64,000 nt of DNA from an uncultured Acidobacteriaceae bacterium (GTDB taxonomy: Bacteria; Acidobacteriota; Terriglobia; Terriglobales; Acidobacteriaceae): the NCBI GenBank assembly GCA_903828675.1, contig CAIKND010000213.1:29114-93113 (forward strand). Reading direction: 5' to 3'. Under the pieces are notes generated by a model that was given only the letters and a program-made list of their open reading frames with translations, was not told the DNA's origin and ran no database searches. Made by a program: the position numbers and the translations under genes. Below are positions 47,774-53,663 of the stretch, piece after piece (the first letter of the stretch is position 1; each line of letters starts with the position of its first letter).

Positions 47774-48850
47774 TTGCAAGTGAAATCGATTTTCCGGAAT
47801 AGTTCCCGTTTTACCGTCCTTGTTGTTTTCAGTGGCGCCATCCTGGCTGCGGTGGCGGGATGCCATCGTTCGCCCACCGCGGACGTAATGGCCACCGTGA
47901 ACGGCAAGGATATTCTGCGCGCGGACCTGGAAAGATATTTCCAGGCAAGCCTCGGCGGCTCGCCCCAGAAGCCTTCAGATGAAGAGGCGGACATCCGGCG
48001 GCTCACCATTCTGCATGGAATGATTGAGGATGAGATTATCCAGCAGCGTGCCGCCAAGCTCAACCTGGCCGCTTCCGATGAGGACGTCAACGCCAAGCTG
48101 ACTGAGATCAAGGCGCCCTACACGCAGGAAGAGTTTGACAACCAGCTCAAGCAGCGCAACCTCTCTCTGGACGACTTCAAGCGCGACCTGCACCGCTCCC
48201 TCACCAAGACCAAGCTGATCAACAAGGAGATCGAGTCCAGAATCAACATCACGGACGGCGAAATCTCCAGCTACTATACGGCCCACAAGGCCGAGTTCAA
48301 TTTGATCGAGCCCCAGTATCATCTGGCGCAGATCGTCGTTACCAGCGGTCCCACCCAGCAGGCCGGCAACCTGCAGAACAACAAGGCATCCGGCGATGCC
48401 GACGCCAAAAAGAAAATCCAGACGCTGCACAGCCGCCTCGAAAGCGGCGAAGACTTTGGCGCCCTGGCCATGAACTTCTCAGAGGACTCGAACACCAGTT
48501 CCAATGGCGGAGACATGGGCTTTGTTGCCGAGTCGGCCCTGCACGGCGCGCCGGAAGTATACGATTCGATCAGCAAGCTCAAGCCGGATCAGTTCACCGG
48601 CGTTCTGCCCATCAACGACCCCTCCGGGCCCGCTCACAAGACCATCGGCTATGCCATCTACAAGCTGATCGCGCATGAGCCCGCCGGGCAGCGCGAATTG
48701 AATGACCCCCGCGTACAGCAGGCCATTCACAAGCTCCTCCACGACAGCCGCGCGCAGTTGCTCCAGAACGCTTATCTGGAAATGCTCCACGACGAAGCCA
48801 AGGTACACAACTACCTTGCCGACCGTATCCTCAAGGACGGCGCGCGCTAA
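47774..48850 (+). CDS. SurA/PrsA-like peptidyl-prolyl isomerase lipoprotein
   Basis: AVAGC lipobox, SurA N-domain 'VMATVNGKDI', parvulin 'DFGALAMNFSED...NGGDMGF'. Confidence 0.85.
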   Translation: MQVKSIFRNSSRFTVLVVFSGAILAAVAGCHRSPTADVMATVNGKDILRADLERYFQASLGGSPQKPSDEEADIRRLTILHGMIEDEIIQQRAAKLNLAASDEDVNAKLTEIKAPYTQEEFDNQLKQRNLSLDDFKRDLHRSLTKTKLINKEIESRINITDGEISSYYTAHKAEFNLIEPQYHLAQIVVTSGPTQQAGNLQNNKASGDADAKKKIQTLHSRLESGEDFGALAMNFSEDSNTSSNGGDMGFVAESALHGAPEVYDSISKLKPDQFTGVLPINDPSGPAHKTIGYAIYKLIAHEPAGQRELNDPRVQQAIHKLLHDSRAQLLQNAYLEMLHDEAKVHNYLADRILKDGAR

Positions 48851-48870
48851 AGTACGCCCTCCAGAACACC

Positions 48871-48909
48871 GCCTCATGCGCTTCGATCCAACGCGCATGA
48901 GGCATTTTT
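48871..48909 (+). terminator. Intrinsic terminator after the surA-like gene
   Basis: 11-bp stem GCCTCATGCGC / GCGCATGAGGC followed by ATTTTT. Confidence 0.85.
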
Positions 48910-48982
48910 ATGCCCGCTGCAGCCAGAATCAGCGGCAATTCAACCCCGGAGTCGTCCTCGCGAATTACCGCAAAAGTGCTCC

Positions 48983-49059
48983 GTGCCCCATCCACTCCCG
49001 CGTTCTTTTGCGGGAATGGGTGGGAAGATGATGCCATTGCTTTGTTGCAGGATCAATAA
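48983..49059. repeat. Partial copy of the 96-bp element / REP-like palindrome
   Basis: GTGCCCCATCC...GCGGGAATGGGTGGGAAGATGA...TTGCAGGATCAATAA shares the hairpin and right end with 35464-35559. Confidence 0.75.
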
Positions 49060-49243
49060 GGCCGACCGTCCCAAGTGGCATAAAGCCGCCTCGTCGAGCA
49101 TCACCCGCTGACCCGCTGACTCGCTATCCCTGCGCAGCAGGGGCTGACTTGCTGACTTTCAACCGCGCCGCTCGAATGATTGATCGCGCAGCCCCACGGT
49201 ATCCCTATTTCTTATCTAAGCAGACACAATAGACGGACATGAA

Positions 49244-49389
49244 AGGCTGCGGAAAAACTCCTATCAAGGGACTGTTTTGAAGGGGCACGGCTTCAGCCGT
49301 GCCGTAAGTGGTTGAAAATACATGAGGGCTTTAGCCCCTGAGGTATGCTTCTCCGGCTTTTCCCAGAAATCAGGCCCTTTCCGCAGCCT
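49244..49389. mobile_element. 146-bp MITE-like element
   Basis: 12-bp perfect terminal inverted repeats AGGCTGCGGAAA / TTTCCGCAGCCT; internal palindromes GGCACGGCTTCAGCCGTGCC and GGGCTTTAGCCC. Confidence 0.8.
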
Positions 49390-49651
49390 CTTTAGCCCCC
49401 GAGCGGGACATGAGATTCTGCTCATACGCCGCCAATAATCCCGTGCACGAAATGAAAAGTCCTAACAACAAAAATGCCACTTGTTTTCAAGGCGCTGAAT
49501 GTAAATAACTTAACCGCCTTCTCGATTGCAGAGAATTAACCCCATTGGGCGCACAATATTCATAGAGGACAAAAGATGAAGGTACGCCGTGGATTGCAAG
49601 CCCAATCAAGCCCCGCTCGAACTGCGCAGGCCACCTAGCTGGCACACACCA

Positions 49652-49705
49652 CCCACCCCCCTCCCACCCCATCCCTCCCTACCCACCCCCCCCCTCCCTG
49701 CACCC
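49652..49705 (-). other. G-quadruplex/i-motif-capable tract
   Basis: Ten runs of three or more C on the plus strand within 54 bp, i.e. ten G-runs on the minus strand. Confidence 0.7.
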
Positions 49706-49736
49706 TTGAATCAATCTGTCGGCCAGGAAGTGAGAA

Positions 49737-50120
49737 GAGACTCGTGCGAAGAAGCTCATTGTTCGATGTCCCATGCGGGCTCTGTGTCAGGGCACGACTT
49801 CAAAGCCTGCACTGAGCGAAGTCGAAGTGTGCCGCAAGTAATTGAAAATACACAAGTACTTCACAGGCTGCGGAAGAGCTCGTCCGGGTGATATGCCGGG
49901 GATTTATCCCCGGCATAAGCGCCGCAGAATGAACGAGGGCTTTACAGGTTGCGGGAAAACTCAATATCCGAACTCTATTGGCGAGCTTTGCGTCAGGGCA
50001 CGACTTCAGTCGTGCCGCAATCCGCTGAAAACAAACCTGGGCCTTAGCCCCTGAGGGATGCGTTCCCGGCTTTCCCTCTCAATTCAAGCCTTATTCCGCA
50101 GCCTGTTTAGCCTCTGAGGT
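49737..50120. mobile_element. Nested MITE-like elements
   Basis: Inner element 49945-50105 (CAGGTTGCGG / CCGCAGCCTG) flanked by TTTA direct repeats (49941-44, 50106-09), inside an element starting CAGGCTGCGG at 49864, itself following a third related segment from about 49737. Confidence 0.75.
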
Positions 50121-50328
50121 GGCTTTCTCGATGATTCAGATTTATTGGGCAAGACGGAAAAGTTTAGGCGAGCAAGGCCCACCGGATTTGCCCGCTCTTT
50201 GCCCATAAGACCGAATTGACTAGAAGATAACTTACGATCAGCCGGCTGCCTGTTTACCGACACTGTACGCCTTGCCGGCAATCCAACCACAATGCCAGCT
50301 CCGCACCATCATCCGCCACCCACAGCAA

Positions 50329-50363
50329 TGTCATCCTGAACGAAGTGAAGGATCCGCGGTTGC
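50329..50363. repeat. REP-like motif (TGTCATCCTGA...GAAGGA family)
   Basis: TGTCATCCTGAACGAAGTGAAGGATCCGCGGTTGC, related to 31086-31129. Confidence 0.7.
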
Positions 50364-50441
50364 CTTTGAGAGTTTCAAATTGGCGTTACTTCCGAATTAC
50401 CGACGATCCTCTCGGGACTGGTCCTGTGAGTGAGTTTCGGT

Positions 50442-50900
50442 CTACCAAATGACATCGAATGACCGGGGTTCCCAGATACCTTTTGTCTCGCTGATACTAA
50501 CCATGCCTTCGCCGGACCAACGTTCAACATTCACACCATCCAACCTTGTGAATTGATAGTAGAGAAAGATCTGATCTGACATGTCACGTCTATTCTTGAG
50601 CCTCCACTCGAATGCGCGAGCCTTGAGATCGGTGTGCGTGCAGTCTATGGCATGGCCGTCGGCCAAACACTTTCCCTGCCGGATATCTGCTAGGAAAGAT
50701 TCTGCGGCAGTTTCAGGTGCGCGATCTCTGAAAGGATTAAAGAGCGTGAGGCCCGTGACTTCTTCTGAGTAATCGGTACAACTACAGCTGGCAAAGAGAT
50801 GCAGCAATACCGGGTGACGGTGGCGTGCGACTACCAGGGCGGCGACAAACCCGGCGGCGGAAACCAACAGGACGGCGGCCACAATTCTCAATCGTTTCAT
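50442..50900 (-). CDS. Hypothetical secreted or membrane-anchored protein
   Basis: N-terminal hydrophobic segment; GAGGA RBS; several Cys; no family recognised. Confidence 0.55.
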   Translation of the reverse strand: MKRLRIVAAVLLVSAAGFVAALVVARHRHPVLLHLFASCSCTDYSEEVTGLTLFNPFRDRAPETAAESFLADIRQGKCLADGHAIDCTHTDLKARAFEWRLKNRRDMSDQIFLYYQFTRLDGVNVERWSGEGMVSISETKGIWEPRSFDVIW

Positions 50901-51275
50901 AGCTTATCCTCCAGCGTCGACCAATCCCAAATACTCTAGCTGTGAGATCGTCAAGAGAATGAATCAATTGGGTCCGTTGCAGCAGGTGTTGCCGTCACCG
51001 ATTGCACGCTCCGATCGTATCACCGCCAACTCGTCAGTTACTAGCTGGTGAACATCTCAGCATCGCTGTTGCCAGTCGAATCCTGGAATCGAACCAATTC
51101 CTGAACAACGTCTTGCGAACCGCTGATTTTAGCCCGGAAACTGACTCTTCAGGAAAGTCGCGGATTCAGGGGAAGCTGGCAGTCTTTGCGATTCTTTGGG
51201 CAAAGCCCCGGAATGTTTGCTTTTCGGTCCCTTCGCTCCAAGTTCCTGCCTTTTCCCGCATCCTCTTCACGCCAT

Positions 51276-53663
51276 TCAGAGCCTGGCCGCGGCTTTCTCC
51301 CCCGAATAGGCCAGCACCTTGTCCGGCGCGCTTGTGACCTCGCCGCCTGTACCGTGTCCCGCGCTCACAACCACCACATTGAAGGTGTGACGCGCGGCCA
51401 TTCCCTTGTAGCTTCCCTGCCGGGCGCCAACGGTCAGAGTCCGGGTCGCATTGTCCCAGTGGATCGGGATAATCGAGTGGGCTCCCTGTGCGTAGCGATA
51501 GCTGTCGCCCTCGTCCTCATAGAGGTTGAAGTCGCCATCTTTCCCCGCATAGATGCGCAGTTCGATGGGATCCGTGGCCTGTCCGGCATATTCGATCGCC
51601 GGTCCCATCGGCAGAATCGTCCCTTCCCGCACATCCAGAGGAATCCGTCCGATCGGGGCCGCGACATTGATCTCGGTGCCGCCCTCGGTCCGCTCGCCGG
51701 TCCAGAAGTCATACCAGCCCGTTCCGGCCGGAAGATAGACTCCGCGACCAGTGGCGTGTTCCTTCAGCACCGGGCTTACCAGGATCGCCGGGCCGAAAAG
51801 GAATTCATCCCCGATCTCCCAAGTAGCTCGATCCGCGCGGAAGTCCATCACCAGGGGCCGCTGAATCGTGTAGTCCTCGTCCGTCACCTTCCATGCCAGC
51901 GAGTAGACGTAGGGTAGGAGCCGGTAGCGCAGACGATCGATCGCCAGCAGCGACGGATACACCTTGTCGTAGGTCCAAAGTTCGTTATGATCGCGGTGTC
52001 CGTGCGTGCGGAAGACCGGGCAGAACGCCCCGTACTCAAACCAGCGCGCATACAGTTCCTGGTACGCCGGCTCGTTGGCCGCGCCTGGGTACGGCTGGTG
52101 GTATCCGCCGATATCGGTGGTCCAATAGGGATAACCAGAAAGTGCAAAATTCAGCCCCGCAGCCACCTGATGGCGCAGCGCCCACCATGTGCTGTACACA
52201 TCGCCCGACCACACCGTGGCTCCCACGCGCTGCTGCCCCAGGAATGCCGAGCGTGTCAACAGAAACACGCGCTTCTCCTGGTTCGCCTGCTTCCAATGGT
52301 CCTGCACGCCGAGGTTATGCGCGAACGGAAAGATATTGGTGTATTCGAGGCCGCTGCCGATAGCCAGTTGCTTGTAACGCAGAATCGCATCGCCCACATG
52401 CGGCCAGTGTTCTTCCGGCTCCGCGCTGTCGAGCCAGAATGCGTCCCATCCTTGCGCAAAGAGCTTGCCTGCCAGTTGGTTCCAGAAGAACTCGCGCCCT
52501 GCGGCGTTGGTCGGATCATAGACCCGCGTTCCCGGGATCTCGAATCCTTGCCGATGGATTTCTTGATAATTCTTCGAATCCTCGTCCATCAGCCCCCACA
52601 CCGAGATCATGGCGTGAACGTGCTCTTCATGCAGCGCTTTCAATTCAGCAGGCACATCGGTATACCCGGCATTGAACTCGGGATCGCCCTCGCCGCCATG
52701 CTTCCACCAGAACCAGTCCTGCACAATGGCGTCCATTGGGATATGCCGGGCACGATACTGGCCGGCGACATCCAGGATCTCGGCCTGTGTCTGGTAGCGG
52801 TCTTTGGATTGGAAGAGCCCGTAGGCCCATTGCGGAAACATGGGGGCGTGGCCGGTCAGCGACCGGTATTCGTGGATAATCCCGTCCATCTCCGGCCCGT
52901 AGAGAACGTAGTAATCCACCTGGTCTGCCGCCATGGACTCAAAACTGAGCTCCAGCGGAAAGCGGTTGTCCATGTAGCTGAAAGAGGCGGTATTCCACAA
53001 GATGCCGTACCCCTTGCTGGACAGCAGCAGCGGAATTGCGACATCGGTGTTGTTCTGGCCCAGTTCTACCGTGCTGCCGCGATAGTTGAACACGCCGCTC
53101 TGGTGCTGCCCAAGCCCGTAGACGGCCTCGGTGGCCTCGGGCCGGAAGCGGTCCTCAAGCTGGTAGAGCCCCGGCGAGCCCAGTGGACTGTATGTCCGCG
53201 GCACATTAGAATTCTCGTGCAGTAGCGTCTCGCCCTTGAGAGTTTTAACGGTCAGGCTACCCTCCCGTCCAGAGAGGGAGATGGTCAGCTTAGACGTAGT
53301 CAGTGTTGTCGTGTCACCGGATTGGCTGAACTGAAAACCCACCCCAGGGCAGGACTGCGCCTTGTCGAGCATCCACGGCCTTGAGGCGGACGATGCCGGT
53401 GCGCCCAAGGGGTGGGCAACCACGTGCAGCAGTGAATCCCCGCAGACCGTCACCTCAAGAACTTCACTGTCATTGTGCGCCGATAGGCCCCCCAGCGTGT
53501 GCACAACCTGCATCATGCCAGGACGCGGAACGTCCCCGGTGACCGTCTGGGCAATCGAGGGAATTGCGAGAAACGGCGAGAAGACAAGGGTGGACAGAGC
53601 CGTCCAGCAGCCGTAATTGCGTAGCTTGATCAAGACCCACCTCGTTAGTTGTAGCTGTAGCAT
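51276..53663 (-). CDS. Glycoside hydrolase family 31 (alpha-xylosidase/glucosidase-like), secreted
   Basis: IPMDAIVQDW, FWLDSAEPE (nucleophile), WSGDV (acid/base), YWTTDIGG, RWFEYGAFCPVFRTHG. Start trimmed below the terminator at 53676-53702; exact start uncertain. Confidence 0.92.
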   Translation of the reverse strand: MLQLQLTRWVLIKLRNYGCWTALSTLVFSPFLAIPSIAQTVTGDVPRPGMMQVVHTLGGLSAHNDSEVLEVTVCGDSLLHVVAHPLGAPASSASRPWMLDKAQSCPGVGFQFSQSGDTTTLTTSKLTISLSGREGSLTVKTLKGETLLHENSNVPRTYSPLGSPGLYQLEDRFRPEATEAVYGLGQHQSGVFNYRGSTVELGQNNTDVAIPLLLSSKGYGILWNTASFSYMDNRFPLELSFESMAADQVDYYVLYGPEMDGIIHEYRSLTGHAPMFPQWAYGLFQSKDRYQTQAEILDVAGQYRARHIPMDAIVQDWFWWKHGGEGDPEFNAGYTDVPAELKALHEEHVHAMISVWGLMDEDSKNYQEIHRQGFEIPGTRVYDPTNAAGREFFWNQLAGKLFAQGWDAFWLDSAEPEEHWPHVGDAILRYKQLAIGSGLEYTNIFPFAHNLGVQDHWKQANQEKRVFLLTRSAFLGQQRVGATVWSGDVYSTWWALRHQVAAGLNFALSGYPYWTTDIGGYHQPYPGAANEPAYQELYARWFEYGAFCPVFRTHGHRDHNELWTYDKVYPSLLAIDRLRYRLLPYVYSLAWKVTDEDYTIQRPLVMDFRADRATWEIGDEFLFGPAILVSPVLKEHATGRGVYLPAGTGWYDFWTGERTEGGTEINVAAPIGRIPLDVREGTILPMGPAIEYAGQATDPIELRIYAGKDGDFNLYEDEGDSYRYAQGAHSIIPIHWDNATRTLTVGARQGSYKGMAARHTFNVVVVSAGHGTGGEVTSAPDKVLAYSGEKAAARL

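What the first reader, a model, noticed from the sequence alone, without database searches (positions are those of the whole stretch)
49737..50120. Russian-doll MITE stack: elements inserting into the same palindrome of their own family
Seen: the inner element (49945-50105) splits GGGC-TTTA-GCC of its host, leaving TTTA on both sides; the empty form of this site is visible at 49326-49337. The host begins CAGGCTGCGG at 49864, exactly where the outer segment reaches the equivalent position (…TTGAAAATACA…CTTCA versus …TTGAAAATACATGAGGGCTTTA). The outer segment's GGCACGACTTCA..GTGCC palindrome is itself interrupted by a CTGAGCGAAGTCGAA REP-like piece. The host also has a 12-bp perfect hairpin (49892-49917). 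Right ends of the two outer elements are degenerate or missing. Inference: a family that carries its own preferred target, so copies pile up in a harmless intergenic site; this may explain how the complex acidobacterial intergenic mosaics grow.
Basis: partly seen in the sequence, partly recalled or inferred. Interest (0 to 1): 0.65.

Follow-up and report, generated by a model that had tools for sequence, protein, structure and literature searches.

The report
Self-nesting MITEs targeting REP hairpin loops
The stack is real. Small non-coding transposons derived from an IS5-type insertion sequence insert into the four-base loop of a repeated palindrome, and because each copy carries that palindrome, copies pile up inside one another and enlarge intergenic DNA in this acidobacterium and its relatives.

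Summary
**Observation:** confirmed. A 161-bp element (49945-50105) with CAGGYTGCGG ends splits GAGGGC-TTTA-GCC of a host arm that starts at 49864. TTTA lies on both sides, and the unsplit site is at 49326-49337.

**Genome-wide:** about 100 such ends exist. In all, 38 of 62 left ends and 20 of 37 right ends abut GGGCTTYA or its complement (background 0.08%).

**Transposase:** related Acidobacteriaceae carry a 1.3-kb IS5-family element. It has the same 17-bp inverted repeats and a 367-aa InsH-like transposase, makes perfect 4-bp duplications (TTCA), and sits in the same palindrome. It is not in this assembly.

**Target:** both palindromes are the REP sequences that flank this genome's RAYT gene in inverted orientation. 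The MITEs hold a REP doublet between their IS5 ends, so they carry their own landing pad. Free REPs are hit as well.

**Other assemblies:** a perfect four-deep doll with matched duplications and a matched variant end pair occurs in another MAG.

**Asymmetric stacks:** arrays such as 5 or 15 left arms look like later tandem expansion.

**Second IS:** a different IS5-family element, recently active here, hits the same loops.

**Verdict:** This is a new variant of REP-targeting transposition. The copies in the window are old fossils.

The parts
49243..49390 (+). Complete un-nested MITE copy ('element A'). It has a left arm with an IS5-type end, an intact centre palindrome and a right arm. TTTAGCCCC follows its right end.
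   Evidence: Its best paralogue is 89% identical.
49284..49303 (+). Arm hairpin GGCACGGC-TTCA-GCCGTGCC of element A. This is REP type 1 and is an empty second target.
   Evidence: There are 87 copies in the genome. The same hairpin flanks the RAYT gene.
49326..49337 (+). Empty centre palindrome GGGC-TTTA-GCCC. This is REP type 2 and is the main target.
   Evidence: GGGCTTTAGCCCCTGC flanks the RAYT gene in perfect inverted copies.
49741..49863 (+). Outer left arm. Its terminal repeat is degenerate (12 of 18 bases by my own alignment), its hairpin is the variant with about 24 extra bases (49790-49833), and its tail ends ..ACTTCA.
49860..49863 (+). TTCA to the left of the host arm. It is a presumed target tetranucleotide, and its partner is lost or uncertain.
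49864..49944 (+). Host left arm. It holds the end CAGGCTGCGGAAGAG, the hairpin 49892-49917 (11-bp stem, TTTA loop) and the tail ..GAACGAGGGC-TTTA.
   Evidence: There are 16 related arms, the best 86% identical.
49941..49944 (+). Left copy of the TTTA target-site duplication of the inner element.
49945..50105 (+). Inner complete MITE (161 bp). It has 10-bp near-perfect ends, its own arm hairpin at 49997-50016 and its own centre GGGCCTTAGCC at 50039-50049.
50106..50109 (+). Right copy of the TTTA duplication.
50110..50140 (+). Truncated right arm of the host (GCCTCTGAGGTGGCTTTCTCGATGATTCAG). The terminal repeat is missing.
51205..51265 (+). Solo right arm ending ..TTTTCCCGCATCCTC and followed by TTCA. 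It may be a displaced partner of the host or outer left arm, or an independent remnant.
   Evidence: score 21.6.

Best explanation
The locus is a fossil stack of MITEs that are non-autonomous derivatives of an IS5-family (IS5-group, InsH-like DDE) insertion sequence.

**The transposase lineage.** This Acidobacteriaceae lineage recognises ends of the form SAGGCTGCGGAAAAA. It inserts into the 4-nt TTYA spacer of short G+C palindromes, and both types are targets: GGGC-TTYA-GCCC and GGCACGRC-TTYA-GYCGTGCC. It duplicates the four bases, and it inserts almost always in one orientation relative to the palindrome's surroundings.

**The targets.** These palindromes are the REP sequences of the genome's REP-associated tyrosine transposase (RAYT).

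**Why copies nest.** The MITEs hold a REP doublet between their IS5 ends. Each new copy therefore brings one to three fresh landing sites, and copies insert into free REPs and into each other. This gives left-left-(left-right)-right-right dolls.

**Later changes.** Slippage or unequal recombination between the tandem arms expands or deletes arms. That produces asymmetric stacks and minisatellites.

**Shown:** the anatomy, the target bias, the duplications, the cognate IS in relatives, and the REP-RAYT link.

**Inferred:** that this transposase moved these copies, how the REP doublet came to lie inside the MITE, and the tandem-expansion step.
For: **Site anatomy:**

**Target bias:** of the ends in the genome, 61% of left ends and 54% of right ends abut the target 8-mer, against 0.08% at random positions.

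**Whole-element mobility:** the same 146-150-bp element lies in at least 5 different hosts.

**Reverse-oriented insertion:** C192:11263-11402 shows TAAA/TAAA.

**Flanking tetramers:** they are identical in 8 of 28 innermost pairs and differ by one base in several more. TTCA pairs with TTCA and TTTA with TTTA.

**Autonomous elements:**
- L107:2572-3871 is 1300 bp, and L138:1414-2736 is 1323 bp.
- Both have 17-bp ends identical to the MITE ends.
- Each encodes a 367-aa transposase with DUF772, DDE_Tnp_1 and DDE_Tnp_1_6. It scores 225 bits against NF033581, the IS5-family model.
- Their flanks are GGC-TTCA|IS|TTCA-GCCCCTGAGG and the reverse complement of that.
- In 3 of 3 copies, TTYA reads in the direction of the transposase gene.

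**Classical relatives:** distant relatives with nearly the same ends use the classical IS5 target, with CTAG, TTAG or CTAA duplications.

**Four-deep doll:** L060:4428-5060 has duplications TTCA/TTCA, TTTA/TTTA and TTTA/TTTA. Its second level carries a matched variant pair of ends.

**RAYT link:** the RAYT (NF047646, 120.6 bits) is flanked by inverted copies of both palindromes.

**Distribution:** the family is in 17 of 18 genomes of the genus that were searched and in 0 of 12 from a second family of the order.
Against: - **No cognate transposase here:** none is in this assembly, and none was seen in five well-assembled congeners by end-pair search. Current mobility here is therefore unsupported.
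- **Old copies:** copies are 75-90% alike, and only 8 of 28 pairs keep identical duplications.
- **Excess of left ends:** left ends outnumber right ends 62 to 37. Some arrays have 5 or at least 15 left arms with one right arm, which simple nesting does not predict.
- **Inverted flanks:** a few copies have inverted rather than direct flanks (C114, L185).
- **No close strain:** none was available, so no orthologous filled and empty pair was seen.
- **Arm assignment is weak:** assigning the left and right arms to the two IS ends rests on weak similarity beyond 17 bp.
Confidence: 0.8

Rival explanations
1. The arms are REP/REPIN-type modules moved as single strands by the RAYT (a Y1 HUH transposase). 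Each module would insert 3' of TTYA and re-create TTYA at its own end. Left arms and right arms would then accumulate independently, and no DDE transposase would be involved.
For: - A RAYT flanked by both palindromes exists.
- Arrays with many left arms and one right arm occur.
- Left ends outnumber right ends.
- Free REP doublets lacking IS5 ends are common.
Against: - The ends are 15-18-bp terminal inverted repeats identical to those of a DDE IS5 element that makes true 4-bp duplications in the same site.
- The symmetric four-deep doll has a matched variant end pair.
- Whole left-plus-right units recur in different hosts and in non-REP DNA.
- The long left-arm arrays show higher-order periodicity typical of block duplication.
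Confidence: 0.08
2. The stacks arise without transposition, by local tandem or palindromic duplication and gene conversion among intergenic REP clusters, as in a BIME-like mosaic. The TTTA repeats would be part of the repeated unit.
For: - Tandem arrays of 44-bp and 93-bp arm units exist.
- Many flanks are imperfect.
Against: - Nested arms belong to different subfamilies, 15-25% diverged, not to local duplicates.
- The tetramer is direct while the surrounding bases are inverted.
- One insertion is in reverse orientation, with TAAA on both sides.
- An IS with the same ends, target and duplication exists.
Confidence: 0.06
3. The nested order in the window is a short-read assembly artefact of a repeat-rich region.
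For: - The genome is a 241-contig draft.
- Several repeats end contigs.
- Reads could not be examined.
Against: - The pieces at this locus are too diverged from their paralogues to be confused. Identities are 77%, 86%, and 95% over only 62 bp.
- The contig is 124 kb.
- The same architecture is found in other assemblies, including ones with few contigs.
Confidence: 0.02

Closest known systems
IS5 of Escherichia coli and the IS5 group of the IS5 family (InsH-type DDE transposase)
   Same: The transposase has the DUF772 N-terminal domain and the DDE_Tnp_1 domain and passes the NCBIfam IS5-family model. The element is about 1.3 kb with 17-bp terminal inverted repeats and a 4-bp duplication. Distant clade members, with nearly the same ends, use CTAG, TTAG or CTAA. 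That matches the YTAR target I know for IS5 (own knowledge).
   Different: The lineage with the MITE ends duplicates TTCA or TTTA inside a G+C palindrome and shows a fixed orientation. The classical YTAR target is not used.
REP-targeting insertion sequences: IS1397 and ISKpn1, ISPpu9 and ISPpu10, IS621, ISRm22, ISNm1106 (Tobes and Pareja 2006, PMC1525189)
   Same: The transposable elements insert specifically into repetitive extragenic palindromes. The broken REP can be rebuilt by joining the flanks. An IS5-family case (ISNm1106) is on record.
   Different: Here the main players are MITEs that themselves contain the REP, so they nest in their own kind. Two unrelated IS5-family lineages (4-bp and 3-bp duplication) hit the same loops. 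I found no report of self-nesting MITEs in prokaryotes in the library searched.
REP/REPIN-RAYT systems (PMC2817692, PMC3333891, PMC3116915, seen in the list)
   Same: A single RAYT gene is flanked by inverted copies of the genome's abundant palindromes. About 80-90 copies of each palindrome were counted.
   Different: The elements in the finding carry DDE-type terminal inverted repeats and target duplications around the REP doublet. REPINs lack both.
IS1111 insertions in QMITE2 of Coxiella burnetii (PMC5896051)
   Same: A MITE serves as the hot spot for insertion of another mobile element.
   Different: There the invader is an IS110-family element unrelated to the MITE. Here the invader is the MITE's own family.
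Nested Tourist and Stowaway MITEs of grasses (own knowledge: Jiang and Wessler 2001, not read here)
   Same: MITEs are found inside MITEs because the short target (TAA or TA) is frequent in them.
   Different: The bacterial case uses a defined palindrome loop, at one to three fixed positions per element, with orientation bias. It gives exact dolls rather than scattered nesting.

Membership tests
MITE (non-autonomous DDE transposon) | Small, non-coding, multi-copy | tested here: met
   Units are 136-164 bp. About 100 ends were found in the genome. No Rfam family matched.
MITE (non-autonomous DDE transposon) | Terminal inverted repeats | tested here: met
   Both ends read SAGGCTGCGGAAAAA.
MITE (non-autonomous DDE transposon) | Target-site duplication | tested here: met
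   The inner element has TTTA/TTTA. Flanks are identical in 8 of 28 pairs and one base off in several more. The dolls in L060 have perfect duplications.
MITE (non-autonomous DDE transposon) | Autonomous element with the same ends | tested here: met
   L107 and L138, from related Acidobacteriaceae, have the same ends. No such element is in this assembly.
MITE (non-autonomous DDE transposon) | Filled versus empty orthologous site | tested here: inconclusive
   Only paralogous empty sites were seen. The nearest genomes are at most 78% identical in the flanking gene. One congener has a 58-bp spacer where this genome has 2.4 kb.
IS5 family, IS5 group | DDE transposase of InsH type | tested here: met
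   DUF772 plus DDE_Tnp_1. NF033581 scores 225 bits against a cut-off of 140.
IS5 family, IS5 group | 4-bp duplication | tested here: met
   TTCA/TTCA and TGAA/TGAA.
IS5 family, IS5 group | YTAR target (own knowledge of ISfinder's description) | tested here: not met
   The MITE-end lineage uses TTYA. Distant clade members do use CTAG, TTAG or CTAA.
REP-RAYT system (for the target palindromes) | RAYT protein | tested here: met
   NF047646 scores 120.6 bits against a cut-off of 80.
REP-RAYT system (for the target palindromes) | RAYT gene flanked by inverted REPs | tested here: met
   The flanking pairs are 33 nt at 91% and 16 nt at 100% complementary.
REP-RAYT system (for the target palindromes) | Conserved GTAG or CGTC tetranucleotide at the REP foot (PMC3733652, listed, not read) | not tested
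   Not examined.
REP-targeting IS (type 1 association of PMC1525189) | Most copies are inserted in REPs, and the REP can be rebuilt from the flanks | tested here: met
   For the second IS.

The most novel reading that the evidence does not exclude
An IS5-group lineage in Acidobacteriaceae has switched from the classical YTAR target to orientation-specific insertion into the TTYA loop of the host's RAYT-associated REP hairpins. Its MITE derivatives have taken a REP doublet inside themselves. They thereby become self-propagating landing pads: a safe-haven strategy that builds Russian dolls, seeds minisatellites and drives the growth of intergenic mosaics. It would be the first described self-targeting MITE family in prokaryotes. 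It would also be a natural system for studying how a DDE transposase reads a hairpin or palindrome target.
Probability: 0.6. Interest if true: 0.62.

Novelty: new variant of a known kind. Interest (0 to 1): 0.55.

Why it matters
- **Origin of the repeat islands:** it gives a concrete, testable mechanism for how the dense intergenic repeat islands of Acidobacteriaceae form. Three mobile systems are layered on one palindrome: RAYT-REPs, an IS5-group lineage with its MITEs, and a second IS5-family element.
- **Harmless proliferation:** it shows how a transposon can multiply with little harm, by carrying its own target.
- **Target choice:** related transposases with nearly identical ends differ in target (YTAR versus a TTYA loop in a palindrome). 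That offers a clean comparison for locating the determinants of target choice in IS5-type enzymes.
- **Annotation:** these stacks can be mistaken for structured RNAs or assembly noise.

Tried and rejected
- **Own-genome search for the IS:** a search for end pairs 260-6000 bp apart found no autonomous element.
- **Resident IS427-like element:** the IS5-family element at C150:17138-18040 shares only GAGGCTG with the MITE ends and sits in CTAG. I rejected it as the partner.
- **Congeners:** loci of PF13586 transposases in 40 congeners held none with the MITE ends. They did reveal full copies of the second IS. An exact-end search in five well-assembled congeners found only MITE-sized pairs.
- **Rfam:** nothing relevant.
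- **3-bp duplication:** TTA or TCA with an extra base at the right end was considered. The autonomous copies show 4 bp.
- **Duplication covariation:** taken alone it is only suggestive (about p = 0.05 by my hand count).
- **Arm assignment:** assigning left arms to one IS end and right arms to the other beyond 17 bp is weak.
- **Literature:** searches found no prior description of self-nesting prokaryotic MITEs. The library is incomplete.
- **Earlier scan notes:** nothing was recorded for this genome. Two loosely similar notes on other genomes exist.

Full report
**The site.**
- The window is G000:C213:29114-93113.
- The region 49737-50120 lies in a 2.4-kb spacer. A SurA-like peptidyl-prolyl isomerase gene ends at 48850, and a GH31 glycosidase gene on the minus strand has its stop at 51276.
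- A 161-bp element (49945-50105) begins CAGGTTGCGG and ends CCGCAGCCTG. It lies between ..GAACGAGGGC-TTTA and TTTA-GCCTCTGAGG.
- The uninterrupted form, ..GAGGGC-TTTA-GCCCCTGAGG.., stands at 49326-49337 inside a complete 148-bp copy (49243-49390).
- The host arm starts CAGGCTGCGG at 49864 and runs to the TTTA at 49944. It is itself preceded by the tail of a third arm that ends ..ACTTCA.
- After the inner element the host's right arm continues for only about 35 bp.

**A real family, not chance.**
- BLAST of the pieces against the 6.39-Mb draft gives about 100 hits for complete units and 17 for each of the other arms.
- A position-weight scan calibrated on the reversed genome finds 62 convincing left-type ends and 37 right-type ends.
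- Both share SAGGCTGCGGAAAAA. Left ends continue CTC.., and right ends continue GGCCTGAAT...
- The eight bases outside the end match GGGCTTYA at 7 of 8 positions or better in 38 of 62 left ends. The eight bases outside right ends match GGGCTRAA in 20 of 37. At random positions either match occurs 0.08% of the time.
- Upstream of many left ends, the flank continues as the tail of another arm (..GAAAATNAANGAGGGCTTTA).
- A second class of flank is the loop of the arm hairpin, GGCACGRC-TTYA.
- Stacks of the form left-left-(left-right)-right occur at C121:14850-15450, C222:57600-58300 and C239:71600-72200.

**Is the tetramer a duplication?**
- The bases around it are inverted (GGGC..GCCC), while TTTA is direct.
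- Among 28 innermost pairs, eight have identical tetramers and several more differ by one base. TTCA goes with TTCA and TTTA with TTTA, with two exceptions.
- One copy (C192:11263-11402) sits in the opposite orientation in its host and has TAAA on both sides.
- One 146-150-bp unit occurs as a whole in at least five different hosts.
- A few units lie in unrelated DNA, for example C216:61780.

**The transposase.**
- No autonomous element with these ends is in this assembly.
- A scan of one genome per species for the 18-mer CAGGCTGCGGAAAAACTC returned more than 119 loci. Most were from Acidobacteriaceae or Terriglobales genomes.
- Two of these loci hold end pairs 1.3 kb apart: L107:2572-3871 and L138:1414-2736.
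- Each encodes a 367-aa protein. The two are 74% identical. They carry DUF772, DDE_Tnp_1 and DDE_Tnp_1_6 and pass the NCBIfam IS5-family model.
- Their flanks are ..GTGGC-TTCA | IS | TTCA-GCCCCTGAGG.. and ..CCTCAGGGGC-TGAA | IS | TGAA-GCCCAC... These are perfect 4-bp duplications in the same palindrome.
- With the transposase gene read forward, the tetramer reads TTYA in these two copies and in a third (L167).
- Homologues occur in 25 of 151 genomes of the family that were searched. The more distant ones (47-50% identity) have almost the same ends but sit in CTAG, TTAG or CTAA, the classical IS5 target.
- The same holds for elements with this 18-mer in Nitrospira and other phyla.
- The MITEs are therefore derivatives of an IS5-group lineage whose target choice has changed.

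**The palindromes are REPs.**
- One of the genome's five Y1-transposase genes (C128:77931-78416, minus strand) is a REP-associated tyrosine transposase (NF047646, 120.6 bits).
- It is flanked by inverted copies of GCTTTGTAATAAGGGCACGGCTTCAGCCGGGCC (33 nt, 91% complementary) and of GGGCTTTAGCCCCTGC (16 nt, 100% complementary). These are the arm hairpin and the centre palindrome.
- The genome has 87 copies of the hairpin. About 73 copies of GGGC-NNNN-GCCC carry TTTA, TAAA, TGAA or TTCA.
- Many of them stand as free hairpin-plus-centre doublets without IS5 ends.
- So the MITE consists of IS5 ends around a REP doublet. Free REPs and MITE-borne REPs are both targets.
- This places the case among REP-targeting insertion sequences, known for five IS families including IS5 (PMC1525189). 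The added feature is that the MITE carries the target.

**Evidence from other genomes.**
- The family is present in 17 of 18 congeners searched and in 0 of 12 genomes of another family of the order.
- L060:4428-5060, from a bog MAG, is a perfect four-level doll.
  - Element 2 lies in the hairpin loop of element 1 (TTCA/TTCA).
  - Element 3 lies in the centre of element 2 (TTTA/TTTA).
  - Element 4 lies in the centre of element 3 (TTTA/TTTA).
  - Element 2 has the same unusual end variant on both sides.
- This is hard to explain other than by insertion of whole elements.

**What simple nesting does not explain.**
- Left ends outnumber right ends.
- One congener has five near-identical 93-bp left arms followed by a single right arm.
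- L139 has at least 15 tandem 44-bp units, each running from the end to the hairpin loop. They show a higher-order period.
- I read these as tandem expansion seeded by a first nested insertion. That step is inferred.
- A few copies have inverted flanks (C114, L185). This may reflect recombination between copies.

**Age and activity.** The pieces at this locus are 77-89% identical to their best paralogues, and no cognate transposase is assembled. The stack is a fossil.

**A second IS.**
- A different IS5-family element is recent, because its ends are 100% identical at 12 or more contig ends.
  - Full copies in a congener are 937 bp.
  - They have two ORFs with DUF4096 and DDE_Tnp_1_2.
  - Their ends read GAGCTTATCCGTAAATA.
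- In this genome it sits in the same hairpin loops as GGCACGGCT-TTA | IS | TTA-GCCGTGCC.
- An IS110-family fragment also lies in the centre of a MITE at C167.

**The locus in other species.**
- A congener (G010) has only about 58 bp between the same two genes.
- The closest relative has one MITE just after the SurA-like gene.
- This fits growth of the spacer by insertion. The genomes are too distant (at most 78% identity) for a clean pair of filled and empty sites.

**Limits.**
- Mobility is inferred from comparative anatomy, not observed.
- How the REP doublet came to lie between the IS5 ends is unknown.
- The literature library held no description of self-nesting prokaryotic MITEs, but it is incomplete.

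Noticed in passing
G000 contig ends: C27, C28, C46, C47, C117, C118, C157 (one end); C23, C24, C42, C50, C128 (other end): A recently active IS5-family element with ends GAGCTTATCCGTAAATA. Its body is missing from the assembly. Full 937-bp relatives are at L025 and L038. It is inserted in the TTTA loops of the same REP or MITE hairpins, apparently with a 3-bp TTA duplication.
   Followed up: partly
G000:C128:77850-78490 (L207): A RAYT gene flanked by inverted copies of both target palindromes. Four further Y1-transposase genes lie elsewhere (C217 twice, C76, C100) without these hairpins nearby.
   Followed up: partly
G000:C167:59723-60961 (L212): A long MITE whose centre holds a nested symmetric 142-bp MITE directly followed by the C-terminal half of an IS110-family transposase (Transposase_20).
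   Followed up: partly
G000 starts of contigs C14, C231, C232 (first 128-137 bp; L213): An identical unassembled repeat abuts MITE ends exactly (..GTGGTCCTTGG|GAGGCTG..) at three loci with no TTYA between. It may be another element that targets the MITE end.
   Followed up: no
window 51205-51269: A solo right arm just downstream of the GH31 stop, followed by TTCA. The same tetramer precedes the host arm at 49860-49863, 1.4 kb away.
   Followed up: partly
window 50442-50900 (-): A 152-aa ORF with a signal-peptide-like start and no Pfam match. It lies inside the expanded spacer between the stack and the solo right arm.
   Followed up: no
window 49640-49705: A C-rich tract of about 65 bp (CCCACCCC-type) just upstream of the stack.
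   Followed up: no
window 49003-49030, and many genome loci such as C4:23600 and C28:22400: Another abundant palindrome family (CCCACCCTTTCCGCA..TGCGGAAAGGRTGGGG type) that often neighbours the MITE stacks.
   Followed up: no
L139:2979-3770, L011 (G012:C13:154700-155600), L065:5234-5400: Minisatellites built from MITE left-arm units: at least 15 units of 44 bp, 5 units of 93 bp, and 4 units of 44 bp.
   Followed up: partly
12 genome loci including window 49803-49826: A variant of the REP hairpin with about 24 extra bases in the loop (..AAGCCTGCACTGAGCGAAGTCGAAG..), 92-100% conserved. It is often the outermost host of a stack.
   Followed up: partly
L048, L051, L054, L079, L103, L114, L123 (Nitrospira); L077, L110 (Dehalococcoidia); others: The same 18-bp end occurs in other phyla, there flanked by CTAG, CTAA or TTAG. 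It is a widely shared IS5-group end with the classical target.
   Followed up: partly
L203 (G010:C101) versus window 48851-51275: The spacer between the orthologous SurA-like and GH31 genes is about 58 bp in a congener and 2.4 kb here.
   Followed up: partly
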